From a virus (lineage: Duplodnaviria > Caudoviricetes), in the IMG/VR virus record IMGVR_UViG_3300042291_001013: a stretch of 64,000 nt of DNA; one strand, given 5' to 3'. This document shows positions 2,344-19,152 of this stretch, piece after piece. The position numbers and the translations under genes were made by a program. How positions within the stretch are numbered: position 1 is the stretch's first letter; every line of letters starts with the position of its first letter. Below the pieces are notes generated by a model. The model saw only the letters and a list, made by a program, of their open reading frames with translations, was not told where the DNA came from and searched no databases.

Positions 2344-3630
2344 TTAGTATCTATAGGTGTCGGGTTTGTACGGGCCGTCAACTGTGACACCAATATACGC
2401 GGCCTGCTTGAGTGTCATTGCAGTGAGCTCCGCACCAATCTGCTCCAGATGTAGTCGTGCAACTTTTTCATCCAGGTGCTTGGGCAACAGGTACAGTCGA
2501 CCTGTTTCGTATCGACTGGTGTTGGTGTAAAGATCAATTTGTGCCATGACTTGGTTGGTAAAACTGTTACTCATCACAAAGCTGGGATGGCCAGTGCCAC
2601 AACCCAAGTTAACCAGTCTGCCTTCTGCTAGCAAAATAATACGTTTGCCACTGGGGAAAATAACATGGTCCACTTGTGGCTTGATGTTTTCCCACTCACA
2701 GTCCTTGATACCTGCAACATCAATTTCAGTATCAAAGTGACCAATGTTACACACAATAGCATTGTTCTTCATGGCGTCCATGTGTGCGCGAGTGATAACA
2801 TCTACGTTGCCAGTGGCAGTTACAAAGATGTCACACTTGTCTGCCGCGTATTCCATTGTGACCACACGATAACCTTCCATTGCCGCTTGCAGGGCACAGA
2901 TAGGATCTGCTTCTGTAACCCAAACTTGTGCAGAGAGTGCTCGCAGAGCTTGTGCAGAGCCCTTGCCCACGTCTCCATAGCCGGCTACCACTGCAACCTT
3001 ACCGGCAATCATGACGTCAGTGGCACGTTTGATAGCGTCTACAAGACTTTCTCTGCAACCATACAAGTTGTCAAACTTGGTCTTGGTTACAGAATCGTTT
3101 ACATTGATAGCAGGCATCCGCAGTGTGCCAGCCGCAATGCGCTCTAGTAACTTGTGAATACCTGTTGTGGTTTCTTCTGTGACACCTCGGATACCAGGAA
3201 CTAGATCAGGGTGTTTGTCATGGATGTACCCAGTTAAGTCATGTCCATCATCAAGGATCATGTTGGGAGTCCAACCATCTGCACCACGCACAGTCTGCTC
3301 AATGCACCACCAGTATTCCGCTTCTGTTTCGCCCTTCCAAGCAAAAACAGGAATACCTTTTGCAGCCAAAGCAGCCGCGGCTTGGTCTTGTGTGGAGAAG
3401 ATGTTGCAACTACTCCAACGCACACTAGCACCAAGTTCAATTAGTGTTTCGACCAGCACAGCCGTTTGAATGGTCATGTGCAAACTGCCCACAATACGTG
3501 CGCCTGCCAAGGGCTTTGAGCCAGCATACTCACGACGGATTGCCATCAAGCCAGGCATTTCGTGCTCGGCGATAGCAATCTCTTTGCGGCCCCAATCTGC
3601 AAGGCCAATATCTCTAATTTTGTAATCCAT
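2344..3630 (-). CDS. ahcY: S-adenosylhomocysteine hydrolase
   Basis: [88 protein letters not shown]; GAGG SD before ATG 3630. Confidence 0.98.
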
Positions 3631-3631
3631 G

Positions 3632-3895
3632 TTACCTCGATTCTTTGTATCTACGTCGCGGTTCGATATCAATTTCTTTGTACAGATAATCTCTAGTGAC
3701 GTGTCCAGCTTCAATTTCCAGCAGTGCTGTTACTGCATGATTGTGCTTGATAGCACTGGCAATTTTTGGCATATCGCCTCGACCCAATTCTCGCATGCGA
3801 CGAGCGCCTACTAGTACCAAATCGTATCTATTTCCAATTGCTTCCACAGCGAGTTCGCTTGTGAGCCCAGCAGTTTCAGGTGTGGTCATATTCAT
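3632..3895 (-). CDS. rpoZ: RNA polymerase omega-subunit homolog
   Basis: [22 protein letters not shown]...[11 protein letters not shown] aligns with omega [22 protein letters not shown]...TVIALREIEEG. Confidence 0.88.
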
Positions 3896-4197
3896 GTTAG
3901 ATCCTTAGGGTTGATTAATCCATTACTGTGCTTGTCTTTGATCTTGTCAAGATCTTGGAACAAACGTTTTTCTTGTTGCGTCAATTTATCCTTGTGCGTT
4001 TTGCGAGGATTTCCACACAAATAACATTTTGGATTACCACAATCCATAGCATGGTGTTTGGCCAAGCGATGTGTTTGTTTGATATTGAGCTCATTGAATG
4101 AACTATGACTCTTGGCAATTTTAACTTGCCTTGAAATCGCAACATCAGTTTTGTGGCGTCTACGTGAATTAATAAATTTTGCTAGATCGTTACTCAT
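3892..4197 (-). CDS. Conserved phage hypothetical protein (basic, CGNPKCYLCGNPRK motif)
   Basis: ORF downstream of the 4223-4251 promoter; putative Zn-binding motif. Confidence 0.7.
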   Translation of the reverse strand: MSNDLAKFINSRRRHKTDVAISRQVKIAKSHSSFNELNIKQTHRLAKHHAMDCGNPKCYLCGNPRKTHKDKLTQQEKRLFQDLDKIKDKHSNGLINPKDLT

Positions 4198-4210
4198 ACA
4201 GTTATTTAAT

Positions 4211-4251
4211 TGTGTAGAACTTATTATAGCAAGTTCTACACAAAAGGTCAA
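4211..4251 (-). promoter_or_regulatory. sigma70 promoter with its -10 inside a perfect 12-bp inverted repeat
   Basis: TTGACC(4251-4246)-17-TATAAT(4228-4223); TGTGTAGAACTT/AAGTTCTACACA at 4211-4222 and 4231-4242; TAAATA at 4203-4208. Confidence 0.8.
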
Positions 4252-4754
4252 TTGTTTAGAACACGAGCAACACTAGTAATTACCGCCGCAATTCGCCCAA
4301 TATCGCGAAGTTGTTCTACGGTGTAGCCTTCTGTCTTGAGTGTTTCGTAGTGTGCCTTGACACAGAAATGGCACTTGCCCACAATTGACGCTGCCAAACT
4401 AAATGCTTCAAAATTTGCTTTAGTTGTGCCACCATGACTTGCAATAGCATTCATACGCAACTGCGCTGGCAATCCTTTAAGGGCAGGATCATCTGCCATT
4501 TCAACGTAGGGATACCATACGTTGTTCTGTGCCATGATGCTGGCCGCTGTCATTGCTGACTCTGCGTGAACAGGAGCATCTGCCAACAACACCGCAAGTA
4601 CCTTGCCGTTGCCAGTTGCAGCCAGCGCGGCCACAGCACAACCCATGGCCACATCTGCATCTAGTGTACTACGAAGTAGCACAGCGTCAAGATTTAACTT
4701 GGTGTCTTTTGCGTAGTCTGGCAACGCACCTTTTACTGATTCAATAAAACTCAT
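4248..4754 (-). CDS. ahpD: Alkylhydroperoxidase AhpD (CMD family)
   Basis: LPDYAKDTKLNL, AASIMAQNNVWY, GKCHFCVKAH (CxxC); same operon as ahpC. Confidence 0.92.
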   Translation of the reverse strand: MSFIESVKGALPDYAKDTKLNLDAVLLRSTLDADVAMGCAVAALAATGNGKVLAVLLADAPVHAESAMTAASIMAQNNVWYPYVEMADDPALKGLPAQLRMNAIASHGGTTKANFEAFSLAASIVGKCHFCVKAHYETLKTEGYTVEQLRDIGRIAAVITSVARVLNN

Positions 4755-4755
4755 T

Positions 4756-5406
4756 TTAATATTTTCCTGATGCTAATACGATTTGACAAATGTGTTCCAA
4801 TCGTTCAATATGTTCAAATGCTCGCCACGGGCTGGTGTCAATAGCAACAACACCGTGTCCTTTGATGCCCACAATGTCATACTCAATATTACCAGCATCG
4901 TCCAACTGCAAGTTCCTGTGGCACTCATCGCCCAGTTCTTGACTAATTGGGGCCACATCACCAACATTAGGTGCCACCCGAGTATAACGACTGAGTTCTG
5001 GAAAGTCGTTAGCAAGACTACTTAACTCAATGCCACGATGCATGGCAGCAACACAGTAGGTAGGATGTAAGTGAACTACCACCCTAACATCTGTACTGTG
5101 CTGACCCATTGCTCGTTGTAGTCCAAAGTGTAAGGGAATCTCTCCACTAGGCTTTAGATTAGTACTGATGTCTGTGTAGAATTCTTCTTCCCAAGATTTA
5201 GATAGGAAAGGTGGAATGGCACTAATCTTGTCAATCAATTTAATTTTCTTGAACTGATCCGGTTGCATTGTTTGCTTGCGAACGCCACTGGGTGTGATAT
5301 AAAAGTGATCACGGTCGTGATGACGAATACTAACATTGCCATCACGACTGGTAATCCAGTTGCGTCTATATGCTTCGACTAATGTGTCGCATATAGTTTC
5401 TAACAT
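4756..5406 (-). CDS. Class II aldolase/adducin-family protein
   Basis: DGNVS, ITPSG, KPSGEIPLH, VVHLHPTY and KGHGV metal-binding motifs. Confidence 0.88.
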   Translation of the reverse strand: MLETICDTLVEAYRRNWITSRDGNVSIRHHDRDHFYITPSGVRKQTMQPDQFKKIKLIDKISAIPPFLSKSWEEEFYTDISTNLKPSGEIPLHFGLQRAMGQHSTDVRVVVHLHPTYCVAAMHRGIELSSLANDFPELSRYTRVAPNVGDVAPISQELGDECHRNLQLDDAGNIEYDIVGIKGHGVVAIDTSPWRAFEHIERLEHICQIVLASGKY

Positions 5407-5963
5407 TACAGAGTCTCGCCACCAACTGTGCGGTTACAAGCACATAGTTCGCCAGTTTGTAACGCATCTAATACACGAAGTGTTTCTTCTGGGCTACGAC
5501 CCACGTTCAAGTTGTTGACAGTAACGTGTTGGATAACGTTGTCTGGGTCAACGATGAATGTAGCACGTAATGCCGCCCCTGCTGGAGCATAGAACACGCC
5601 TAGCTGTGCAATCAAACTCAAGTTGTCGCCAGTTTCTGGATTGTAACGCTGTGTGTCAGCAAACTGGTTGTGTGTGATCTTGATCAAGTCACTGTGGCTC
5701 TTTTGCCATGCTACTTTACAAAACTCATTGTCTGTGCTTCCTGTGAGCAATACTGCATCACGGTCAGCAAAGTCACTTGCTAGTTTGTCATAGGCTACAA
5801 TCTCTGTAGGACAAACGAATGTAAAGTCCTTTGGGTAGTAAACAATTATTTTCCACTTGCCTTCAAATGACTTTTCTGTAATGTCAAAGAAAGCATCTTC
5901 TGGCTGTCCTGGCTTGACACCTGTAACCACAAACGGTTCTAACTTATCACCAACTGTTTTCAT
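5406..5963 (-). CDS. ahpC: Peroxiredoxin AhpC
   Basis: YPKDFTFVCPTE, RATFIVDP, VGRSPEETLR, GELC. Confidence 0.96.
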   Translation of the reverse strand: MKTVGDKLEPFVVTGVKPGQPEDAFFDITEKSFEGKWKIIVYYPKDFTFVCPTEIVAYDKLASDFADRDAVLLTGSTDNEFCKVAWQKSHSDLIKITHNQFADTQRYNPETGDNLSLIAQLGVFYAPAGAALRATFIVDPDNVIQHVTVNNLNVGRSPEETLRVLDALQTGELCACNRTVGGETL

Positions 5964-6500: not shown

Positions 6501-6974
6501 TTAGGCTGCTCGTAGACTTTTGAATCTATCTGCCGCGTATGATGCCGCAAATGCTTCTGGCTTCACAAACGGGATCACATTGCATGTTCCTTTAATGTAG
6601 CCTACAGCTTGTGAAATCACACAGCTTGATCCGTGCATTTCGTTTGGGTTGATGTCCAAGTGAACTTCAACTTCACGGCCTTCTAGCACATCGGCCAGCT
6701 TCAAATACAATTCGCTAACCTTGTATACTTCTGTCATGAGTCGCATGGCCGGCTTGCTTGGTTTTTGATCGTAAACACGTTCTCGGTGTACTTCGCCAAA
6801 CAGTTTGCAACCGTTGTTGCCGTTGATGTGTACCACAATGGCCAGCACATAGTCAGCATACCAAGCACCGTCAATTTTGATTCGTTCCGAGTCGCAGCCA
6901 AGATAGATTCGAGTTTCGGGTGTTTGGGCCCGGATAAACTCTGCTACTTGATTGATGTCTAGTTTTTTCATCAT
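6501..6974 (-). CDS. RNase H-like protein (DUF458/YkuK-like)
   Basis: IYLGCDS, RLMTEV, EVHLDIN, VKPEAFAASYAAD; start trimmed to MMKKLD (upstream extension overlaps tRNAs). Confidence 0.8.
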   Translation of the reverse strand: MMKKLDINQVAEFIRAQTPETRIYLGCDSERIKIDGAWYADYVLAIVVHINGNNGCKLFGEVHRERVYDQKPSKPAMRLMTEVYKVSELYLKLADVLEGREVEVHLDINPNEMHGSSCVISQAVGYIKGTCNVIPFVKPEAFAASYAADRFKSLRAA

Positions 6975-7014
6975 TGTCTTTCTATTTAACTCGGGAACCG
7001 TTACAGTTTTATTA

Positions 7015-7094
7015 TGGTACCCCTGCTCAGATTCGAACTGAGAACATATACTCCCTTTTGAGGAGAGTGACTTTACCAATTTGTCCACAGGGGC
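7015..7094 (-). tRNA. tRNA-Leu(CAA), short (8-nt) variable region
   Basis: Loop CT-CAA-AA, CCA. Confidence 0.92.
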
Positions 7095-7109
7095 ACAGCG
7101 TTTGAAATT

Positions 7110-7186
7110 TGGTGCCCCAGGGGAGACTCGAACTCCCAAAATTTGGCTTCTAAGACCAACACGTATACCAATTCCGTCACCGGGGC
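7110..7186 (-). tRNA. tRNA-Leu(TAG), no long variable arm
   Basis: Loop CT-TAG-AA, 5-nt variable loop, CCA. Confidence 0.92.
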
Positions 7187-7197
7187 TTAAATACAAT

Positions 7198-9124: not shown

Positions 9125-9199
9125 TGGGGTATCCAATGAGAATTGAACTCATGATAGCGGAATCACAATCCGCGGTTTTACCACTAAACTATGGACACC
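9125..9199 (-). tRNA. tRNA-His(GTG)
   Basis: Loop TT-GTG-AT, G-1:C73, CCA. Confidence 0.96.
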
Positions 9200-9314
9200 A
9201 TATAGGAGCACTCTCAACAGCAGGCCTAGGAGGCAATCTGGTTGCTGAAACTTTTGCATCTGCAGATACTAGGCTTCTTCTCCCGCGTTGACTTACGCCA
9301 AGAATGCTTTTATA
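9200..9314 (-). ncRNA. Candidate stem-closed ncRNA A (Lys-His spacer)
   Basis: TATAAAAGCATTCT...AGAGTGCTCCTATA terminal stem fills the spacer from Lys CCA to His G-1. Confidence 0.5.
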
Positions 9315-9388
9315 TGGTAGGGGTGTTCGGGAACGATCCGAATTTTACTGGTTAAAAGCCAGTTACTTCACCTTAAAGTTTCACCCCC
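9315..9388 (-). tRNA. tRNA-Lys(TTT), atypical T-loop
   Basis: Loop CT-TTT-AA; T-loop ATCGTTC; CCA. Confidence 0.88.
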
Positions 9389-9974: not shown

Positions 9975-10002
9975 AAATTTTCAAACACACTGTTTCCAAT
10001 GT

Positions 10003-10062
10003 GTGTATTAAAGCACTCTAAAATACTTAGGCTGCCTGTTCGTAAAGAATGCTTTAATACGC
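10003..10062 (-). ncRNA. Candidate stem-closed ncRNA B (17-bp hairpin)
   Basis: GCGTATTAAAGCATTCT...AGAGTGCTTTAATACAC; stem core identical to element A. Confidence 0.45.
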
Positions 10063-10156
10063 TGTAATTTTTTATCTCACAAAAGAGACTCTATCCTACA
10101 GGCCGCCCATTTGTAGTTTAGAGTGATACCGGCTCTCGTTGCCATTGCACTAAATG

Positions 10157-10567: not shown

Positions 10568-10577
10568 ACTAATTGAA

Positions 10578-10790
10578 TTTGCAAGTAGTTGCTCCATCGT
10601 TATAGCAACCATTCACCCGTGTAATAAACTCGAGCGGGACTCGGTACGTCACTTGGGATACTAGTCCAGTTTGTCTCCGTTACAGACACCACCCTTGCGA
10701 GTGGTTGGGAGTTGAACCCATCACCTTCTACTGTTTTGGTCCTTCGAAGAAACCTAGACAGCATGACATTCTCTTGCTGACACTTACAAA
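10578..10790 (-). ncRNA. Candidate structured ncRNA C (about 213 nt, contains T-loop)
   Basis: Closing stem TTTGTAAGT/ACTTGCAAA; GGG-TTCAACT-CCC T-arm; ACCACTC-GCAA-GGGTGGT GNRA hairpin. Confidence 0.55.
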
Positions 10791-10875: not shown

Positions 10876-10950
10876 TGGCGGTCCCAGGGGGTAACGATCC
10901 CCCTCTTCAGCAGTGACAGTGCTGTGTGCGTCCATGAACACCTTGAGACC
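10876..10950 (-). tRNA. tRNA-Asp(GTC) copy 2, atypical T-loop
   Basis: Loop CT-GTC-AC; T-loop ATCGTTA; G73, CCA. Confidence 0.85.
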
Positions 10951-10956
10951 AATTTT

Positions 10957-11101
10957 TATAGTTAAGCACCGAGAATGCCAATTTAGGAGTCCGGTGCTTC
11001 TGTTCCAAAGCCGATGCAGTTATATCAGGATCAGTCGCCGGCCGCTGTGACCCGAATAGTGTAAGCGTCCTTACACGATACCTTATCGGTGCTTAACTAT
11101 A
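10957..11101 (-). ncRNA. Candidate stem-closed ncRNA D (145 nt)
   Basis: Perfect 16-bp terminal inverted repeat TATAGTTAAGCACCGA/TCGGTGCTTAACTATA; internal hairpins GTGTAAG/CTTACAC and GGGTCA/TGATCC. Confidence 0.6.
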
Positions 11102-11103
11102 AA

Positions 11104-11310
11104 AACAAAAATGCTCTGCATCCCCCGGCGGTAATTGTAGTACATCAAGATACGACGCTATCGTACCCATCACACGTACCTTCCACCCGCTTCCCGACAG
11201 GGACCGTTATCGCATTGCTAGCGGCCTTTGGGTTCAAAGACTACCACCCGTAGCTGTCACGCTACTTCTCATCGTGTGGGTCACACTATCCGGAGACACC
11301 CGGAACGTTC
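11104..11310 (-). ncRNA. Candidate structured ncRNA E (about 205 nt, GC-rich)
   Basis: Starts directly after Tyr CCA; closing GTGTCTCC/GGGGATGC; hairpins GTAGC/GCTAC, CTTTG/CAAAG, TACGA/TCGTA; no credible ORF. Confidence 0.55.
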
Positions 11311-11472: not shown

Positions 11473-11547
11473 TGGTAGAGCGTAGGAGAGTCGAACTCCT
11501 CTTATGCGGATGAAAACCGCATGTCCTAACCGATAGACGAACGCTCC
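11473..11547 (-). tRNA. tRNA-Glu(TTC)
   Basis: Loop TT-TTC-AT, CCA. Confidence 0.94.
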
Positions 11548-11557
11548 ATAGTTCACT

Positions 11558-11782
11558 ATATGAAAACACATTAGGATGTTTGATAGAAGTAACAGTTTTG
11601 AACCTGCCCTACTGTGTCGTCCACAGATTTGTCTATCAACCACATTACGGGCCAACTAGATCCGGCGCGCTTCGCTCTTTCGAGTCTGCTTTCGTGTAGT
11701 CCAAGTAGAGCCTAGCCGTCACTAGGATTTAGTTCTCTACTTGGGTACCTACCGGAGTTGGTAACCCAATGCGTTTACATAT
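11558..11782 (-). ncRNA. Candidate structured ncRNA G (225 nt, two domains, T-loop)
   Basis: About 17-bp closing stem ATGTAAACGCATTGGG/CCTAATGTGTTTTCAT; CCAAGTAGAG/CTCTACTTGG; CTC-GAAA-GAG; TTGATAGA/TCTATCAA; CAG-GTTCAAAA-CTG. Confidence 0.62.
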
Positions 11783-11881
11783 AGTGCCCAGAACTGAATC
11801 TGGGTACACTATACAAAATTAAATTTTTAACGAACTCCAAAGTAGCTTCGATCAACTGTCTTTGTTTTCTAACTTGTATCT

Positions 11882-11910
11882 AGTATAACATCTTGTGCTA
11901 TTCTGGTCAA
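11882..11910 (-). promoter_or_regulatory. sigma70 promoter heading the tRNA array
   Basis: TTGACC-17-TATACT. Confidence 0.8.
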
Positions 11911-11983: not shown

Positions 11984-12012
11984 AGTATAACATGATTCCA
12001 ATTCTTTGCCTA
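11984..12012 (-). promoter_or_regulatory. sigma70-like promoter (duplicate of the 11882 module)
   Basis: TAGGCA-17-TATACT followed by AGAnACnAGTTAG, as at 11882. Confidence 0.55.
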
Positions 12013-12022
12013 ACACATAAAG

Positions 12023-12049
12023 AAAAACCCTGCTCGGTGCAGGGTCTTT
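12023..12049 (-). terminator. Intrinsic terminator of attenuator 2
   Basis: AAAG-ACCCTGC-accga-GCAGGGT-TTTTCTTT. Confidence 0.85.
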
Positions 12050-12069: not shown

Positions 12070-12156
12070 TTACACACAAAGACCCCGAGATGGATCATAC
12101 TCACGCTCGCATGTGAATGCCATTGAATTGAGGATGATTGCGAAAGTTTGTTTCAT
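12070..12156 (-). CDS. Putative leader peptide 2 (28 aa, MKQTFAIILNSMAFTCEREYDPSRGLCV), leaderless
   Basis: ATG 6 nt after TATAAT; CGGGGTCTTTGT can form 12 bp with the terminator 5' arm; stop 21 nt before the terminator. Confidence 0.68.
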   Translation of the reverse strand: MKQTFAIILNSMAFTCEREYDPSRGLCV

Positions 12157-12162
12157 AAGTGT

Positions 12163-12191
12163 ATTATATATGACAGCAGACAAAAAGTCTA
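12163..12191 (-). promoter_or_regulatory. sigma70 promoter of leader 2
   Basis: TAGACT-17-TATAAT-6 nt-ATG. Confidence 0.75.
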
Positions 12192-12204
12192 CTGTTTTGG
12201 TAAA

Positions 12205-12540
12205 ATTGGATAGGTTTATTCTGTTACGAGGAAAACCTATCAAAACCCTAGGCAGTGTTTAGGCTGCCAATGCGAACTGTTCGTCGTTTGCGTTTACGTT
12301 TTTTGCTTCTACGACCGGGAAACCCCAACCCTACGGCTTTCACATTGCCGAGCTGTCCACTCTGTTACTCTTTGCCCTGTCGAAACCATGGCAGGCCCAT
12401 TATAAAACATACTCAAACGGGTCTTTTCGCCTATCCCCGTGCCGTGGCTTGCAAGGATAGGGCTGAATATGCTTTATGGTGGACCTGGCGGGAGTCGAAC
12501 CCGCGTCCAGAACACTTTTCTCTTTGCTTCATACAGCAAT
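12205..12540 (-). ncRNA. ssrA: Circularly permuted (two-piece) tmRNA, tag ANDEQFALAA
   Basis: Acceptor piece ...GGACGCGGGTTCGACTCCCGCCAGGTCCACCA (CCA 12479-12477) precedes a 78-nt intervening segment and the coding piece GGGCCTG... (G1=12398, G3:U70); tag ORF 12291-12259. Confidence 0.93.
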
Positions 12541-12553
12541 AACCTATATTATA

Positions 12554-13498
12554 TTAGGCTTTCTGAATTTTGTCAACCAAACCGGCACTGAATGTGTTGG
12601 CAAATTGATCATATACTTTGGCAGTTACCTTGCGAAAAGTTTGCTCATCAGCATCGCTAAATTTAATAACACGAATGCCATCTTGCTCACAACGTGCCTT
12701 GGTAGGCTCAACTTCGGCCACAGCCACAGCACGCTCAAAACGTCCAGCTTCTAATGCCGCATCTTTCATGACCTGTTGCAGGTCTGCAGACAAGCCAGCC
12801 AAGAAGTTCTTGTTCACAATGATGTTAGTCAACAACAAGCGATGGTTGGGTTCCAAGATAGATTCAGCAACTTCGTTTTGTTGGCAAGCATAGATACGTG
12901 GCCATGAGCTTTCGCCGCCATCAATAGCACCATCTCGGATGCCTTCGGCCACACGTTCAACGTCCATCACAACTGGATCAGCGCCCAGGGCAGTCCATGT
13001 AGCGGCTGCAACTGGTGAATTTGACACACGCACTTTAACGCCGGCCATTTCACTTAGACTTGCAACGTCACGATTCATGGGCATGTTCATAAAGCCACCT
13101 GAGTAGGTAAATGCCATGCCTTTGATGTTGCTGTTCTTGGCGTAACCATCCAGCAAACTCTCGCCAATTTCACTTTCAAACACACGTGCCGCGTGATCGT
13201 GATCACGGAACAAGAAAGGCAAATCAAGTGCGTCAAGATCATTGTTGTACTTGCTGAGTACATAAGTGTACATCTGGCTCATTTCAATAGCGCCAGTGTC
13301 CATAACATCCAACAGGTTATGTTTGGTGATTGGTTCACCATGATTGTACTTGCTGGTATACTCGCTTAGAGTCAGCACTTCAATCTCAAACTGTCCTGGT
13401 GCACGGGCTTCTACTACTTCAGTAAATTTTTCAGCGGCACGAATAAAAATGTCAATAGGTTCATGGGCTAATACCCATTTGATGTGGATAGGTTTCAT
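12554..13498 (-). CDS. TRAP-transporter DctP-like solute-binding protein (no signal peptide)
   Basis: ALDLPFLFRD, EMAGVKVRV, LGADPVVM, GAIDGGE motifs. Confidence 0.88.
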   Translation of the reverse strand: MKPIHIKWVLAHEPIDIFIRAAEKFTEVVEARAPGQFEIEVLTLSEYTSKYNHGEPITKHNLLDVMDTGAIEMSQMYTYVLSKYNNDLDALDLPFLFRDHDHAARVFESEIGESLLDGYAKNSNIKGMAFTYSGGFMNMPMNRDVASLSEMAGVKVRVSNSPVAAATWTALGADPVVMDVERVAEGIRDGAIDGGESSWPRIYACQQNEVAESILEPNHRLLLTNIIVNKNFLAGLSADLQQVMKDAALEAGRFERAVAVAEVEPTKARCEQDGIRVIKFSDADEQTFRKVTAKVYDQFANTFSAGLVDKIQKA

Positions 13499-13534
13499 AA
13501 TATTTTTTCCTTGAGTAATAGCTTGCATGTGTAT

Positions 13535-13633
13535 GCTACGGTGGGCGTTCTAGGTATTGTGCTAGTAAAGGGCATTGCCCAAGCGTCCATTATTTCCGAC
13601 GTCAGCCCCTGCTGGCGTTGCTAGAATTATTTA
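13535..13633 (-). promoter_or_regulatory. TAAATA promoter plus candidate structured 5' leader of the DctP gene
   Basis: TAAATA at 13628-13633 then CTAG...CTAG-closed multi-hairpin segment (GCCAGC/GCTGAC, GTC/GAC, GGGCA/TGCCC). Confidence 0.4.
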
Positions 13634-13683
13634 GCTTTTGCAAGCGTCTTGTATAGCATTTTTAAGGCATTAGTGCGCAATTG

Positions 13684-14868
13684 TTAAAATTTAAAATGAT
13701 TGTTGATACCTGAGCTTTCAAAGTCAGCTTCGCCCAGGTAATAAAAGGGTGATAAAAACCCCACAAAGCCAACTGCTTGCCCCATTTCTCTGTTGAAGTA
13801 CTTGCTGTCAATAGTTTTTACTAGATGTGCAAGACCCGCTTGCCATTTGGCATACTGTGCAGTTTCTTTAAAGTTGGTATAAAACCAATGATCCATCTCG
13901 TTGTAAAAACTGTTGGTTGGTTTACTGGTCTGGAATGTTTCTTGATTGTACTGTGGGTAGATTAACGGCTTGATCAAGTGCTCGTATGTTGTTCGATGGG
14001 TGTAGCTGTAGTTTGGCCAACGGCACACATACTGCATGTGTTTGTTGTGCTCTAGCATAAACCAGTTCTTGACCATGTGGCATTGTTTGATAAACATCTC
14101 TGGCAAGTCAGGCGTCCAATAAAAATATTCGTTGGTCATGTTGGTATAATCACCAAAATCACCCATGCTATGATTGGCCATAACATCAATAAAGTAAGCG
14201 TACCACTTTTTGTCCTTGATGCATAGCTTGGGCTTGTCTACCCCGTACAAGATGCAAATGCGTTGACCAGTGTCTGCTAGCTTTTTGTGACCTACATAGC
14301 CTGTAGCTGAGTGCTTGAACGCATGTCCAGGTTGGAAATAATCTTTAGTTTTCATAACCCAAGATTCATCATACACTTGAGTTAACATGTTTTCACTGTA
14401 GTCGTGCATGGTAATTTTTGTGCGAGGTGAAGCAGTGGTCAACCAGTTCAGCACAGGATATGCCGCATAACGTGCTTCGCTTAGAGTGTTCTCAGGTTTG
14501 CAGTTAAACGGATCGTCGCTAACATCTTTCTCACCAGTCTTGGGATATCGAAAAACAACCTCATCAAGGTGTATTCCGTTGTTGATAAAGCTATACAATG
14601 CTGTAGTCGAATCTCCCCCACCAGAAAATTCTAAACGAATGTAATCGTACTTGTCCCGTAATTGTTGCGCACGAATTCGATACAGGTCTAGGATATTGAT
14701 ATTGGGTTCAACTAGCCAATTTTCGGCACCAAATATTTCGTTGCTGAAATTCCATTCGGGAAACTGATTGGTTTCTGTTGCCTTGGTCAGTGCCATGGGC
14801 TTGCTAAAAAACTTTTCAGTTCCTACAGTGTAGTACCCCAACTTGGGGTTTTGTTCAATCTTGATCAT
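13684..14868 (-). CDS. PP-loop (adenine nucleotide alpha-hydrolase-like) protein, paralog 1
   Basis: RAQQLRDKYDYIRLEFSGGGDSTT; EYFYWTPDLP. Confidence 0.7.
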   Translation of the reverse strand: MIKIEQNPKLGYYTVGTEKFFSKPMALTKATETNQFPEWNFSNEIFGAENWLVEPNINILDLYRIRAQQLRDKYDYIRLEFSGGGDSTTALYSFINNGIHLDEVVFRYPKTGEKDVSDDPFNCKPENTLSEARYAAYPVLNWLTTASPRTKITMHDYSENMLTQVYDESWVMKTKDYFQPGHAFKHSATGYVGHKKLADTGQRICILYGVDKPKLCIKDKKWYAYFIDVMANHSMGDFGDYTNMTNEYFYWTPDLPEMFIKQCHMVKNWFMLEHNKHMQYVCRWPNYSYTHRTTYEHLIKPLIYPQYNQETFQTSKPTNSFYNEMDHWFYTNFKETAQYAKWQAGLAHLVKTIDSKYFNREMGQAVGFVGFLSPFYYLGEADFESSGINNHFKF

Positions 14869-16478
14869 TGTGAGGTTCCAAAAAAGTTGTTGTACCAGTT
14901 GTTGGCTGACTGTGCATGCTTGGCTTGTATTTTATTTTTGCTGTTAAAGTAGTCAAAAAAGTTTATGGCCAGTTGTTCAGTTTCGTTGTCAATGTCTATT
15001 TGCCAGGGCAGATCTATGCCATAGTACATGGCCATGTTTGCTAAAGGACCTTGATACCAAAAGTGCTGAAGTTTATCATTATAGTGTCGTCTTGATTCAG
15101 ACACAACAGTGTCCTGCAGCCATTCCTTGATGCAAAGCTCTTGACCAACAGAATTCATCAATTGCCAGTATGGAGTATCGTTTTTTGGCGCTAGATACAT
15201 ACCAACTTGAATACGTTTCAGCACGTCATTATTGATGTTGTTAACAAACTGATTGTACGAATCTTTCCAGTCAAACGTTCGATCATGATCCTGCTTGATG
15301 TAATCAACCAATTGATTAATAAAAGCCAACTGAGTTGAAAATCCATTGGCGTCATATACGTCAGTAAACCCGCTGGAGATACCCAGCGTCACACAATTAG
15401 CCACAAATGTTTGTTCAAAGAATCCGGCCTGCCAAGATATTTTTCTTTTGATTGCACCCTTCATCCACGGGAACCGCTGATCAAACTCGTCAATCAACTG
15501 CTGTTCATCAGTAGTAAAGTTTTTGTTGTACACATAACCATTGCCACTGCGCCCTGGTTGTGGCAGACCAAACACCCATCCTTGACTCATGGCATAATGT
15601 CTGGACACACAATCTGATGGATTTTCTAGATCATGACGATTTGGTCCCTGCCCAACTATTGCGGCATTGTTAATAGTATCTTCAACCGGACGCCAACGAA
15701 ACGGTACAAACTGCGAAAACAATCTCTTGAACCCGGTACAGTCAACAAACAGATCTGCATGCACCTGTGAATCGTCTTCACCTACTAGGTGAGTAACTCT
15801 GGTCCCATCAAACACCACATTCTTAATTCGCAGAGCTTGAACTTTGACTCCGCAAGGAATGCCCACGCTTTCGTGAATTACGTCTTTGACATAATCAGCA
15901 TTGAAATGAAAACTTGAAACCAATCGCTTCTGTGGCAGATGCTGTTTGTTCATGATTGTTTTGTAATAGCTATACCAATAGCTTTCGCTTAGGTCGCCAG
16001 CCCTGTTTTCATTTTTACGCAGTCCTTTGTTGTATAGGTGTAACCATACGTCCCACAATGTGTATTTGTCATCTTCGGCACCCGATGCTGGACCCAGAGG
16101 TTTTGTTCTATGCCCATAGGTGTCTGTTATAGATTGTGTAATTATCTTGGCACTAGGATTCCACTGGAATCCAGAGACCATGGGTGTCTCGGTGCCATCA
16201 AATCCAAAAAATGCCACACCATACTTGTAGCTAGAATTTGATTTTTTCATCCAGTCATAAGAGCTCTCGTCATCAATGCCAAACAGTTTGCGCATAACAT
16301 CACGACAGTTAAACGCAATGCTTTCTCCGACACCGATGTAAGGAGTGTTGGGATCATGTACAATAGTCACATCAGTTCCTGGACAATTTCTTTTTATGGC
16401 GGCGGCTGCAAAATATCCAGCGGCTCCGGCGCCCACAATCACAACTTTGAGTGGCTTGGCTTCAGCATTTTTTATCAT
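14865..16478 (-). CDS. Tryptophan-halogenase-family flavoprotein
   Basis: GAGAAG, IGVGES, DLFVDCTGF, GWVFGLP...GNGYVY, LGISSGF. Confidence 0.85.
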   Translation of the reverse strand: MIKNAEAKPLKVVIVGAGAAGYFAAAAIKRNCPGTDVTIVHDPNTPYIGVGESIAFNCRDVMRKLFGIDDESSYDWMKKSNSSYKYGVAFFGFDGTETPMVSGFQWNPSAKIITQSITDTYGHRTKPLGPASGAEDDKYTLWDVWLHLYNKGLRKNENRAGDLSESYWYSYYKTIMNKQHLPQKRLVSSFHFNADYVKDVIHESVGIPCGVKVQALRIKNVVFDGTRVTHLVGEDDSQVHADLFVDCTGFKRLFSQFVPFRWRPVEDTINNAAIVGQGPNRHDLENPSDCVSRHYAMSQGWVFGLPQPGRSGNGYVYNKNFTTDEQQLIDEFDQRFPWMKGAIKRKISWQAGFFEQTFVANCVTLGISSGFTDVYDANGFSTQLAFINQLVDYIKQDHDRTFDWKDSYNQFVNNINNDVLKRIQVGMYLAPKNDTPYWQLMNSVGQELCIKEWLQDTVVSESRRHYNDKLQHFWYQGPLANMAMYYGIDLPWQIDIDNETEQLAINFFDYFNSKNKIQAKHAQSANNWYNNFFGTSQ

Positions 16479-17701
16479 GTTATCCTATAAGTGTTTTTTA
16501 AATTAACGTAACAGCCGTTGAGTGACTTGGTACCGGCAATTTCGTCCCAGTGCTTGGGTGCAATGGTTTTTACATGATTCCTAAGCCACGCAAACCCTCG
16601 TGCATAATAATTTTGTCCTAGATCAGGAGACAAACTATTCCATAACCATTCGTCACGTTGTGGCCAACTGGTGCATAATGGTTTTTTAGCCACAACAGCA
16701 TCGGGCATCCAATCTTGGTAAATTAACCTGTGCATTCCGCCCATGGTCAAGGTATAAGGTTTGTTGTTGTGGGTAAAATACACCGCTGCCAATCCTGCTG
16801 TGTCGTTAAACGAAAGGTGCAGAGATCTTGAAATTTTGCCTTCAACTACATGTTTACCATCACAGTGGCCTGGGTCAAATTTTTCACAGTAGTTTTTGAT
16901 CACATGCGCTTGTTTGCAAGGCAACATTGGAAAATCAGCACCCCAATAAAAGTACTCGTCGTATTCGCCAGGTCGATTCAGCATCTGAGCATAGCCACTA
17001 ACGCCGTGATCAAGTCCATCTCTAAAATTAACAAACCAATCTGTGCCTTGCTGTGTTATCATGGGCTTTTCAATTCCCCAAATAAAACACAGGCGTTTAC
17101 CTTGATTGATGATATTGGCGTAGTCGGGTATGTCCTGTCTAAATTGATGTCTTGACAAAGTAACTGGAGAGAAGTAATTGTTGACTCTGTAAAAGTGATC
17201 CCAGCGAGTGTTGTAATCCTTTAACAGTTTGATTTCCATGTCAGTAATATCAACCAGTCGATGTTTAGTGTTGCGATACACAGGATTGTTAGCCAGCAAC
17301 TGCTGGGTGATTGGTATACTAGTCTGTGCTAGCTCTTCATGAAAAAAAGTGGTCTTGTCATCGTGTGCGGCTTTCATGTTGGTGTACTGCGCAATCTCAT
17401 CTATAAAGATATTGTTGCGTACAAAGGTCTGCAGGATATTGTGACTGTCAGCACCGCCACTAAACCACAGCACAATGTAATCATACTGATCTCTAATTTG
17501 CCTAGCACGTTGCTCGTACCAAAAATCTAAACTGCCCGGAGGTTCCTGGGACCAGTCAACGGATTGATAGGTGTCTTGATTGTAGTGCCATTCTACTGGC
17601 AGTTTTGATTGTGCGCTGTGCTCAATTGCTTCTAGTTTGCTGTAGGTTTTACGTGGACCCACAGTGTAGAATCCATATCGATCGCGATTGTCTAGAGACA
17701 T
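16475..17701 (-). CDS. PP-loop protein, paralog 2
   Basis: RARQIRDQYDYIVLWFSGGADSHN; EYFYWGAD; start trimmed to MSLDNRD. Confidence 0.7.
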   Translation of the reverse strand: MSLDNRDRYGFYTVGPRKTYSKLEAIEHSAQSKLPVEWHYNQDTYQSVDWSQEPPGSLDFWYEQRARQIRDQYDYIVLWFSGGADSHNILQTFVRNNIFIDEIAQYTNMKAAHDDKTTFFHEELAQTSIPITQQLLANNPVYRNTKHRLVDITDMEIKLLKDYNTRWDHFYRVNNYFSPVTLSRHQFRQDIPDYANIINQGKRLCFIWGIEKPMITQQGTDWFVNFRDGLDHGVSGYAQMLNRPGEYDEYFYWGADFPMLPCKQAHVIKNYCEKFDPGHCDGKHVVEGKISRSLHLSFNDTAGLAAVYFTHNNKPYTLTMGGMHRLIYQDWMPDAVVAKKPLCTSWPQRDEWLWNSLSPDLGQNYYARGFAWLRNHVKTIAPKHWDEIAGTKSLNGCYVNLKNTYRIT

Positions 17702-17702
17702 A

Positions 17703-18605
17703 TCAACGTCGAACGCCTTGGGCGGCTTGTTGCCAGTGCCTATTTTCCTGGGCAAAACGTTTTTCCACTTCGGCAAGACTGAGAACAGGGGTTGACAAAT
17801 ATGCATTGGCCTGACGTTGTTGTATGCCTGAGTCTGTGGCCAGCACCTCTAGGTCTCGACGATATTGAGCAATATCTGCCTCTGGAGTAGCGGCAGGCAC
17901 CAGTAACCAAAGATTGAGCACAAAATTTTCTAGTCCACGCATGCCAAGGCTGGCAAATGTGGGAATGCCTCGATGACTGCGAGTGCCTGTAATAGCGATT
18001 GGAAACAGTTGTCCACCATCAATCCAGCCTTCGCTATCAGCCAAGAATTCACTGGTTAGATCAATGTGTCCGCCTATAGCATCACGTGTGGCTTCGATGC
18101 CTCCAGGATAAAACGCCAACACCAGTTCAGTGTTGGGAAGATGTTGTTGCATGGCAATGGCCATAAGATGCGATATACTGCCCGGAACAACCCCAATGGT
18201 CAATGTGCGTTGTTGGCGTAGTTCAGCCCAGCTACGATATTTTTTGCTCATTAATACCGGCGCTTGGTCGCCAGCAAACATCATGATAGGACGGAACTGT
18301 TCAACTCGATGCGCTTCAGTTTCTTTAAACAGCAAAGGCCTGATCATAAAACTGCTGGATGCGGCCAGCACTTCTGGACGCTGTGCATTGGCCACAGAGT
18401 TTGCGGCAATACTACCACCAGCACCTGGCCGGGTTGCAAACACATAGGTGCGTTGTGTCTGTGTTTTGTTGGCCAGTGCAGTGCCTTGTCGCAACACATT
18501 GGCTGTATTGCTACCGGGACTGAATCCCCATACCACTGAAACAGTTTCAGCACTGGCGGTCACTGCCATCACACTCAAAATCAAAGTTAATAAAAATTTA
18601 TTCAT
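17703..18605 (-). CDS. Bug/TctC-like solute-binding protein (divergent)
   Basis: Signal peptide MNKFLLTLILSVMAVTASA; WGFSPGS, RPGAGGSIAA, YPGGIEATRDAIGGHID, IPTFASLG. Confidence 0.85.
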   Translation of the reverse strand: MNKFLLTLILSVMAVTASAETVSVVWGFSPGSNTANVLRQGTALANKTQTQRTYVFATRPGAGGSIAANSVANAQRPEVLAASSSFMIRPLLFKETEAHRVEQFRPIMMFAGDQAPVLMSKKYRSWAELRQQRTLTIGVVPGSISHLMAIAMQQHLPNTELVLAFYPGGIEATRDAIGGHIDLTSEFLADSEGWIDGGQLFPIAITGTRSHRGIPTFASLGMRGLENFVLNLWLLVPAATPEADIAQYRRDLEVLATDSGIQQRQANAYLSTPVLSLAEVEKRFAQENRHWQQAAQGVRR

Positions 18606-19152
18606 TGTCATTATTCTCCACAGGGATCCACCCCAATTTAAAAAAATCCTCTTGGATCTCGTCAGTGACATGACCTTCGCCCACAAAGTGTTTGTCATAC
18701 CACTCAATTCTTGCTCGTTGCTCACTAGTCAACTCCGCATCATCTGTTGCGGCACCACCACGTATGCCCGAACAATACCAGTCCATGTAGTCGCCTTGTT
18801 CACGCATGTCGGCCACAATACCCCCGGCGTAGCGCCACGAGCACGACCAAGTTTGGCCCTTCAACAATGGCCACACTGCGTTGCGTTGCCAGTCTTGATT
18901 GCACAAGGCCGCGTAGATGTTTTGTGCATACTCTTCTCGTGCTTTGGCCTTGGCACAGATCCACTCGGTACTGCGTAGATCGTATTCAAGATTGTTTTTC
19001 TTCCACTCCTCGTCAGCGTCGCGGGCAAGATCATGTGCCTTGGCATCTTCGTACATGTTCAAGTAATCCTGATTGGGCTCCTCGCCAGTTTCTTCACAGC
19101 GTTTGATATAGTTTTCTGCTTGAAAGGTATGACGTTCTTTGCTACGATTCAT
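18598..19152 (-). CDS. Conserved phage hypothetical protein
   Basis: YAQNIYAALCN...WSCSWRYAGGIVAD...DYMDWYCSG. Confidence 0.75.
   Translation of the reverse strand: MNRSKERHTFQAENYIKRCEETGEEPNQDYLNMYEDAKAHDLARDADEEWKKNNLEYDLRSTEWICAKAKAREEYAQNIYAALCNQDWQRNAVWPLLKGQTWSCSWRYAGGIVADMREQGDYMDWYCSGIRGGAATDDAELTSEQRARIEWYDKHFVGEGHVTDEIQEDFFKLGWIPVENNDNE

What the first reader, a model, noticed from the sequence alone, without database searches (positions are those of the whole stretch)
11558..11812. ncRNA G: 225-nt two-domain RNA with a T-loop, first product of the tRNA operon
An approximately 17-bp closing stem holds domain 1 (CCAAC and TCCGG pairings, 10-bp CCAAGTAGAG stem, GAAA tetraloop) and domain 2 (TTGATAGA stem, CTGTG hairpin, GTTCAAAA T-loop-like motif). 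A separate near-perfect hairpin precedes it (11781-11812). It is the most elaborate candidate and sits closest to the promoter, so it would be made first.
Basis: partly seen in the sequence, partly recalled or inferred. Interest (0 to 1): 0.66.

Follow-up and report, generated by a model that had tools for sequence, protein, structure and literature searches.

The report
Kissing-loop RNA of uncultured giant phages
This stretch is a real gene for a folded, roughly 190-base non-coding RNA that hundreds of uncultured bacterial viruses carry, usually beside a tRNA gene; it matches no catalogued RNA family, its two arms appear to be tied together by a loop-to-loop contact, and its job is still unproven.

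Summary
Real and conserved. The minus-strand element (core 11766-11574) belongs to an RNA family absent from Rfam: 323 loci, 229 distinct cores, single copy in 11/11 near-complete genomes of two distant phage lineages (about 360-kb jumbo and 150-200-kb T4-like). I found none in cultured phages or bacteria. It does not support the T-loop (61/229 cores), the GAAA loop or a fixed first position. What is conserved is two three-way junctions plus two loops, GNCG and GACG, on fixed-length arms of free sequence. These loops change together in one subtype and are replaced together by another complementary loop pair in a second, which points to a kissing strut like the GACG hairpins of murine leukaemia virus. 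The long closing stem is missing in stand-alone copies that have their own promoter, so it is probably a processing handle and the RNA acts in trans. Best guess (0.45): a compact decoy or scaffold that binds a host protein or complex. Ribozyme, ligand sponge and RNA oligomer remain open. The scan met this family before on other DNA (e1-5391158, probably e1-5375642).

The parts
11882..11910 (-). Sigma-70-like promoter with extended -10 (a second one at 12012-11984)
   Evidence: Consensus scan, 10/12 matches plus TG; 13 sites in the region against 4.0 expected. Activity not shown.
11827..11835 (-). boxA-like antitermination motif in the leader
   Evidence: Recurs 64-70 nt before the RNA in about 40 cores and 106-128 nt before it when tRNA-Glu intervenes. 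Name from resemblance to E. coli rrn boxA (own knowledge).
11779..11814 (-). Leader hairpin (8-bp outer, 6-bp inner stem); outer 3' strand switches to pair with the RNA's 3' end. Occupies the slot held by a tRNA in most homologues
   Evidence: present when the RNA follows boxA directly (57 cores), absent when it follows a tRNA.
11554..11786 (-). Long closing helix P1 (11786-11765 with 11575-11554); probable processing handle
   Evidence: Covaries; median 21-23 pairs in arrays but 5 in stand-alone copies; similar stems close other inserts of the array and the tmRNA spacer.
11574..11766 (-). Conserved core of the ncRNA, 193 nt (family range 163-227 nt)
   Evidence: model R1 scores it 184 bits (it is in the training set), next hit in window 1-25000 6.6 bits.
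11641..11648 (-). Central three-way junction: P2a (11764-11761/11648-11645), unpaired U at 11644, P5a (11643-11641/11578-11576)
   Evidence: Near-invariant; P5a shows at least five pair combinations with two-sided changes.
11653..11760 (-). Domain 1 stalk: P2b (11760-11757/11656-11653), P2c (11755-11752/11665-11662) and an invariant U-G pair (11751/11666)
11691..11751 (-). Second conserved junction (UAG at 11751-11749, ANGA at 11695-11692, G at 11666) and arm P3 (11748-11721/11716-11696)
   Evidence: Junction letters invariant in 229/229 parsed cores (partly by the parser, but also kept in members found through proteins). P3 3' strand 20-22 nt in 198/202 with free sequence.
11717..11720 (-). 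Loop L3, GNCG tetraloop (GACG here); proposed kissing partner
   Evidence: closing pair covaries, so it is a true tetraloop.
11667..11690 (-).
   Evidence: 13-65 nt long across the family.
11612..11626 (-). Hairpin P6 with loop L6 (GACG plus one base, 11621-11617); proposed kissing partner
   Evidence: 5-bp stem, 97.8% paired, 4/5 pairs compensatory; distance from the central junction 20-24 nt in 200/202.
11580..11639 (-). Domain 2 stem P5b (11639-11632/11587-11580)
11591..11608 (-).
   Evidence: the hairpin is absent altogether in L160 and L181.
11473..11547 (-). tRNA-Glu(UUC), the usual neighbour
   Evidence: directly upstream of 112 and directly downstream of 37 cores.

Best explanation
A phage gene for a stable, trans-acting structured RNA. 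SHOWN by comparison: the secondary structure; a conserved core of two three-way junctions; single copy; exchange between distant phage lineages; independence from any one neighbour. STRONGLY INFERRED: the GNCG loop on the 20-22-bp arm P3 pairs through its CG with the CG of the GACG loop in domain 2, a strut that fixes the two domains around the core (within one molecule or between two). INFERRED: host sigma-70 polymerase transcribes it early, and in tRNA arrays it is cut out at the long closing helix (RNase III-type cleavage plus tRNA end maturation). COMMITTED GUESS: the braced core presents a fixed shape that binds a host protein or complex of transcription, translation or anti-phage defence, and titrates or redirects it, as a decoy or scaffold.
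For: Structure. Strut: invariant loops on freely covarying stems; two fixed lengths; 12 subtype-E cores lack both loops and instead carry two other invariant terminal loops with 5-bp Watson-Crick complementarity, CACCA/UGGUG (79, 82; about 1.5% by a simple count of 15 registers at 1/4^5); 5 subtype-F sequences change L3 to GGCG and L6 to UCGC together, adding a third G-C pair, and neither change is seen alone in 202 others. Precedent: GACG tetraloops SL-C/SL-D of murine leukaemia virus form loop-loop contacts (PMC5874298). Trans action: about 30 stand-alone copies with a short P1, 14 with a promoter 20-30 nt upstream and 13 with a new promoter directly downstream; downstream neighbours vary. 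No long conserved single strand for base pairing, no kept reading frame. Invariant paired bases around the central junction suit groove recognition or tight packing. Shared by phages whose polymerases are about 30% identical while domain 2 is up to 85% identical.
Against: No binding partner is identified and no phage protein is obligately linked (PF04308 missing in 4/13 near-complete genomes). The core could equally be an active site or a ligand pocket. The subtype-F change may be a single event (one side of a branch, support 73) and subtype E is one lineage with no covariation in its own loop pair. In the main subtypes the third position does not covary (A-G and C-A common). CG is self-complementary, so L3-L3 or L6-L6 contacts are not excluded. 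One variant (L756) fits neither strut clearly. Expression evidence is from contigs of relatives only.
Confidence: 0.45

Rival explanations
1. Catalytic RNA of a new class: the invariant junctions form an active site braced by interchangeable peripheral struts, acting on tRNA precursors or another RNA.
For: A conserved core with swappable peripheral contacts (subtypes A-D, E, F) is how RNase P and group I intron subclasses vary (own knowledge). The VS ribozyme likewise has three-way junctions and a length-sensitive kissing arm (own knowledge). Usually abuts a tRNA (104).
Against: No Rfam ribozyme hit. The hammerhead core is not met (only ANGA matches). Stand-alone copies lack tRNA neighbours. 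No conserved scissile-site context or guide sequence was visible; flanks vary.
Confidence: 0.14
2. Small-molecule-binding RNA acting as a sponge, for example for nucleotide alarm signals of host defence or stress.
For: Three-way junctions closed by a two-G-C-pair kiss are the purine-riboswitch plan (own knowledge); the invariant unpaired bases cluster at junctions. Early stand-alone expression would suit a counter-defence role.
Against: No expression platform, no conserved downstream gene; few invariant unpaired bases; no riboswitch model scores. Short likenesses to TPP and c-di-GMP-I aptamers recalled from memory lack their defining motifs and order.
Confidence: 0.12
3. RNA-only oligomer: the kiss is intermolecular and the RNA assembles into dimers or rings, as ROOL and GOLLD do.
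For: ROOL and GOLLD are phage RNAs near tRNA islands that build cages through kissing loops (10.1101/2024.12.08.627333); retroviral GACG loops kiss between molecules. Covariation cannot tell intra- from intermolecular pairs.
Against: Only one strut per molecule and one third to one quarter of their size; arm lengths of about 16, 20 and 16 bp can close a triangle within one molecule (inference). Oligomerisation is a structure, not a function, and is compatible with the best explanation.
Confidence: 0.13
4. Cis-acting leader element (put-like antiterminator or processing enhancer) for the tRNA operon, the reading closest to the first reader's stress on position.
For: Within 130 nt of a boxA-like motif in about 96 cores (47); first or second in many operons.
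Against: At least 52 cores have four or more tRNAs on both sides; 13 stand-alone copies are followed at once by a new promoter; close relatives fill the same slot with other inserts; its ends are closed like other excised inserts.
Confidence: 0.08
5. A tRNA-Glu partner, T-box-like: the invariant GAA in the second junction reads the UUC anticodon.
For: 149 of 226 cores touch tRNA-Glu(UUC), on either side (104); GAA is kept in 226/229 (82).
Against: The order Cys, Glu, RNA, Tyr, Asp is shared by descent in many arrays (47); GAU variants still sit next to tRNA-Glu; GAA lies in a short junction strand; no T-box hit in Rfam; close relatives keep tRNA-Glu without the RNA (113).
Confidence: 0.05
6. 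Non-functional spacer or a small protein gene.
For: A 62-codon TTG-start ORF overlaps the 3' part.
Against: Compensatory changes in nearly every helix (42, 126); core lengths fall evenly in all three frames (32/30/29); retention by distant lineages and under its own promoter.
Confidence: 0.01

Closest known systems
Phage T4 rnaC and rnaD (species 1 and 2 RNAs; NC_000866 70908-71171; PMC12685909)
   Same: Small structured RNAs of unknown function encoded in a phage tRNA cluster, next to a tRNA.
   Different: 139 and 119 nt; model R1 finds nothing on them (best 4.6 bits elsewhere in the locus). Same niche, not the same family.
GOLLD (Rfam) and ROOL RNAs (10.1101/2024.12.08.627333)
   Same: Phage RNAs near tRNA islands, function unknown, conserved part plus variable part, kissing loops.
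   Different: Several times larger, many pseudoknots, also in bacterial prophages; no Rfam hit here; oligomerisation untested for this RNA.
GACG hairpin pair (SL-C/SL-D) of murine leukaemia virus (PMC5874298)
   Same: Two hairpins capped by GACG-type loops able to kiss through CG; the likely physical model for L3-L6.
   Different: A packaging and dimer signal of an animal retrovirus with adjacent hairpins; here the loops lie 100 nt apart on separate domains, L3 is GNCG and L6 a five-base loop. Analogy only, no homology claimed.
Bacterial Y RNAs (YrlA) and other T-loop tRNA mimics
   Different: The loop has 8 nt, is missing in most members, and there is no D-arm, CCA end or linked Ro60 gene that I saw; no Rfam hit.
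Candidate viral structured RNAs of Fremin et al. 2023 (PMC10690425)
   Same: Same source data (IMG/VR); 8,495 unnamed candidates.
   Different: Their tables are not held here, so I could not check whether a fragment of this family is among them; it is not discussed in the text passages read.

Membership tests
Any Rfam 15 family | Score at or above gathering threshold | tested here: not met
   Window, 15 diverse homologue loci; E-value searches give only chance hits.
tRNA-like / Y RNA (YrlA) mimics | Conserved 7-nt T-loop on a 5-bp stem | tested here: not met
   8-nt loop in the 5-bp register; 61/229 exact, 141/229 without the hairpin.
tRNA-like / Y RNA (YrlA) mimics | D-arm partner and acceptor-like end | tested here: not met
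   Not called by ARAGORN or Rfam; no such element in alignments A1-A3.
tRNA-like / Y RNA (YrlA) mimics | Linked Ro60/TROVE gene | not tested
   No family search for TROVE was run; none appeared among genes shared across lineages.
T4 rnaC/rnaD | Sequence or structure homology | tested here: not met
   R1 on the T4 tRNA region, filters off.
T4 rnaC/rnaD | Location in a phage tRNA cluster | tested here: met
   (about 195 of 226 cores).
T4 rnaC/rnaD | Accumulates as a discrete stable RNA in infection | tested here: inconclusive
   Contigs of relatives in four RNA libraries cover it, but contigs show no ends, strand or level.
GOLLD / ROOL | Match to their covariance models and size | tested here: not met
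   core 163-227 nt.
GOLLD / ROOL | Protein-free multimeric assembly | not testable with these tools
   Needs mass photometry or cryo-EM.
GACG kissing hairpins (gammaretroviral type) | Two stems capped by loops ending in or holding CG | tested here: met
GACG kissing hairpins (gammaretroviral type) | Coupled change or loss of the two loops | tested here: met
   Subtypes E and F; possibly one event each.
GACG kissing hairpins (gammaretroviral type) | Physical two-pair kissing complex | not testable with these tools
   Needs probing or a structure.
Hammerhead ribozyme | Core CUGANGA, GAAA and UH around a three-way junction | tested here: not met
   Only ANGA and one G match; no Rfam hit.
Riboswitch (TPP, c-di-GMP-I, T-box considered) | Aptamer consensus and an expression platform before a conserved gene class | tested here: not met
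   No Rfam score; neighbours vary and many have their own promoter.

The most novel reading that the evidence does not exclude
A new class of catalytic or ligand-binding RNA used by phages: a conserved two-junction active core held in shape by interchangeable kissing struts, one of which is the two-base-pair GACG kiss so far known from retroviruses, acting in trans against a host defence or stress pathway.
Probability: 0.22. Interest if true: 0.9.

Novelty: new variant of a known kind. Interest (0 to 1): 0.64.

Why it matters
Phage tRNA clusters have been known for decades to carry stable RNAs without a function (T4 species 1 and 2, GOLLD, ROOL). This family is small enough to transcribe, probe and solve; it comes with more than 200 natural variants, a defined invariant core, and natural swap experiments (strut lost and replaced, strut mutated in both partners) that say which mutations to make. 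It is kept in one copy by, and traded between, phage lineages whose core genes are only 25-35% identical, so it is under selection tied to a shared host. A conserved core with exchangeable braces is the pattern of large ribozymes and RNP scaffolds; whichever it proves to be, it makes the open question of what phage array RNAs do directly testable.

Tried and rejected
Rfam by gathering score and by E-value: nothing. blastn of three subtypes against 50,697 cultured phage records: no match to the RNA (11, 31, 32). R1 on five cultured jumbo relatives: none. Domain-2 pattern in all GTDB genomes: 0 (22; covers subtypes A-C only). R1 on 156 bacterial genomes, mostly the family of a Rhodoferax genome: none; that tool's first look missed a 31-bit member in G004 (compare 110 with 67, 115), so weak cellular homologues are not excluded. 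First covariance model on A1 failed to build. T-loop, GAAA loop and first position as defining features: rejected. Third kissing pair in the main subtypes: no covariation. Anticodon mimicry (ACG/CCG are Arg anticodons): rejected, L3 is a true tetraloop and also takes G and U. CsrA-type ANGGA sites: only in some members. TPP, c-di-GMP-I, FMN, RNase P, Alu and hammerhead likenesses recalled from memory: short words only, defining motifs absent. Obligate protein partner: the RNase H-like gene PF04308 in the array was the best cross-lineage candidate (61-72% identity) but is missing in 4/13 near-complete carriers. RNA runs: only contigs of relatives; summed contig depth in run X9 is about 3,300 over the RNA against 17 or less over the leader and the DctP gene, but the tool warns that contig depth cannot rank genes and the flanks are less conserved; two contigs ending near 11765-11767 are not evidence of a processed end. 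Host by AdoHcyase relatives: only 'Proteobacteria'. The tRNA-Glu complementarity line was a script error and is not used. The weak R1 hit in G005 (L455) is chance-level; that record's real copy is cut by the contig end (L493). Six literature searches aimed at the family found no description.

Full report
SETTING. The window is part of a 100-kb virus fragment, 29% complete. Its DNA polymerase is 45-51% identical to those of the jumbo phages Atu_ph07 and Phosso, and close relatives are complete at about 360 kb. The minus strand from 11547 down to 6258 is a tRNA array, preceded by a two-piece tmRNA that scores 112 bits against the betaproteobacterial model; a betaproteobacterial host is my inference from that.

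OBSERVATION. The element is on the minus strand, folds better than all shuffles and has no Rfam match. Numbering below is position p = 11781 minus window coordinate.

FAMILY. A 17-base word from domain 2 hit 57 viral contigs, 56 of them true homologues. Patterns from domain 1, from domain 2 and from a divergent core raised this to 323 loci, 229 distinct cores and 91 clusters at 85% identity; the median pairwise identity of the first 98 representatives was 64%. Patterns bias what looks invariant, so I checked both ways: members selected on domain 2 alone all had the domain-1 motifs, and members reached only through proteins (G001, L695, L700, L708, L737, L756) kept both junctions. The model R1 finds one copy in 11 of 11 near-complete records (ten of these were chosen because they carry it, G001 was not). 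These fall in two lineages: jumbo phages (polymerase 62-90% identical to the window's) and 150-200-kb T4-like phages (28-34%; nearest cultured relatives are cyanomyoviruses at about 52%). Domain 2 of the window is 85% identical to that of a T4-like member, so the gene has moved between lineages. It was not found in cultured phages or bacteria, and some close relatives hold a different insert in the same slot.

STRUCTURE. On a MAFFT alignment of 81 members 86.5% of cells pair, against 71.5% in shuffles and 34-44% in slid controls; 53 of 65 pairs show two-sided change. A model-fitted alignment of all subtypes gives 89% (leans towards the model). Anchored mutual information recovers P1, P2c, P3, P4, P5 and P6 as top pairs. 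P1 closes a tight junction of P2a (17-20/133-136), one unpaired U137 and P5a (138-140/203-205); P5a changes as a unit between subtypes. P2b and P2c lead to a second junction with invariant U30-G115, A31, G32, A86, G88, A89. From it run P3, capped by a GNCG tetraloop, and the variable P4. Domain 2 carries P6 with a GACG-plus-one loop and the optional P7.

The T-loop-like loop has 8 nt, is exact in 61/229 cores although my first search selected for it, and is absent from all 41 members newly found by the domain-1 pattern. The GAAA hairpin is in the variable arm. The upstream hairpin shares a strand with the closing helix, which wins in the full transcript; it appears only where no tRNA precedes the RNA, and there the tRNA's own CCA end joins the helix instead. 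Position: 126 cores start 14-15 nt after a tRNA (112 tRNA-Glu), 57 follow boxA and the hairpin, 12 lie elsewhere in arrays, 31 have no tRNA within 1.5 kb.

THE STRUT. Four observations point to an L3-L6 contact. (a) Both loops keep CG while their stems change freely. (b) The 3' strand of P3 is 20-22 nt in 198/202 and L6 lies 20-24 nt from G138 in 200/202, though the sequences and even the design of domain 2 differ. (c) Subtype E (12 cores, same flanks as the window) has lost the long arm and L6 together and has two other invariant terminal loops, on P4 and on domain 2, with five Watson-Crick pairs of complementarity. (d) Subtype F (five sequences; L494 is only 59% identical to its nearest neighbour over aligned columns) has GGCG at L3 and UCGC at L6, a third G-C pair; neither state occurs alone in the other 202. 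Limits: E and F may each be one event, the third position does not covary elsewhere, and the contact could be between molecules. The physical precedent is the GACG loop pair of murine leukaemia virus (PMC5874298).

CIS OR TRANS. In arrays P1 has a median of 21-23 pairs; in stand-alone copies 5. Related long stems close three other inserts and the tmRNA spacer in this window. Of 31 stand-alone copies, 14 have a sigma-70 consensus 20-30 nt upstream and 13 another directly downstream. So the long stem is most likely a release signal and the 163-227-nt core is the product. No conserved downstream gene, no long conserved single strand, no kept frame and no obligate phage protein were found. Contigs of relatives in four RNA libraries from four studies (three freshwater, one marine) cover the RNA; this is compatible with expression but does not show it.

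MECHANISM. Shown: fold, core, distribution, context. Strongly inferred: the strut (about 0.8) and action in trans (about 0.85). Guessed: target. I put 0.45 on a shape-based decoy or scaffold for a host protein or complex, because many invariant bases are paired ones flanking a tight junction and nothing suggests a guide, a substrate or an expression platform. Ribozyme 0.14, oligomer as the main point 0.13, ligand sponge 0.12, cis antiterminator 0.08, tRNA-Glu reader 0.05.

COMPARISON AND NOVELTY. It shares its niche with T4 rnaC/rnaD, GOLLD and ROOL but is a member of none. I found no paper describing it, but could not check the 8,495 unnamed IMG/VR candidates of PMC10690425; I put about 0.3 on a fragment being listed there. 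Other agents of this scan reported the same family on other genomes; the family, subtypes and strut tests above were derived here, subtype E before and subtype F after I saw those notes.

VERDICT. Real, conserved, uncatalogued structured RNA; new variant of the known kind 'phage tRNA-array RNA of unknown function'; interest 0.64.

Noticed in passing
window 12070-12156 and 12023-12049 (-): A 28-codon leader ORF after a promoter at 12191-12163, followed by a strong terminator: looks like a leader-peptide attenuator ahead of the array. The two promoters at 12012 and 11910 lie downstream of it, so this RNA may escape its control.
   Followed up: no
window 10575-10790 (-): Unannotated structured insert between tRNA-Asp and tRNA-Cys with several ANGGA-type loops (CsrA/Rsm-sponge-like by resemblance). 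Relatives' contigs reach the highest summed depth in the RNA runs (up to 56,000). No Rfam hit.
   Followed up: no
window 11100-11310 (-): Another unannotated, roughly 200-nt structured insert after tRNA-Tyr, also heavily covered by relatives' RNA contigs; only a weak permuted-tmRNA score (19.7 bits).
   Followed up: no
window 10950-11105 (-): Insert closed by a long stem, with its own long hairpin capped by a GACG loop; conserved after tRNA-Glu in L695 and L700.
   Followed up: no
window 9195-9318, 9995-10065, 10945-11105, 12395-12480 (-): Closing stems of unrelated inserts and of the tmRNA spacer share an AAAGCAY/RUGYUUU-like core with this RNA's P1; probably one processing signal.
   Followed up: partly
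window 12171-12590 (-): Two-piece (permuted) betaproteobacterial-type tmRNA, tag ANDEQFALAA. ARAGORN's second tmRNA call (12477-12785) overlaps the DctP gene and looks like an artefact.
   Followed up: partly
window 6501-7196 (-): RNase H-like gene (PF04308) inside the tRNA array; 61-72% identical across phage lineages whose core genes share 25-35%; absent from five cultured jumbo relatives. Candidate tRNA-array processing enzyme, not obligately linked to this RNA.
   Followed up: partly
L003, L051, L252, L260, L275, L303, L318, directly upstream of the RNA: A second conserved, roughly 110-nt non-coding element precedes many stand-alone copies; no Rfam hit in L003, L051, L303.
   Followed up: no
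L756:1506-1700 (+): Divergent member with neither standard loop; its P3 loop is complementary to a segment at the start of domain 2, possibly a third kind of strut. One sequence only.
   Followed up: partly
window 2344-5963 and 12554-18725 (-): Host-type metabolic genes flank the array: AdoHcyase, class II aldolase, peroxiredoxin, DctP and TctC-like solute-binding proteins, tryptophan halogenase family.
   Followed up: no
G001 pieces L642:9141-9527, L651:14307-14576, L639:9028-9213: IscU-like, RNA polymerase omega-like and HU-like small genes (names from sequence resemblance only) shared at 53-85% identity between jumbo and T4-like carriers, in line with a common host group.
   Followed up: no
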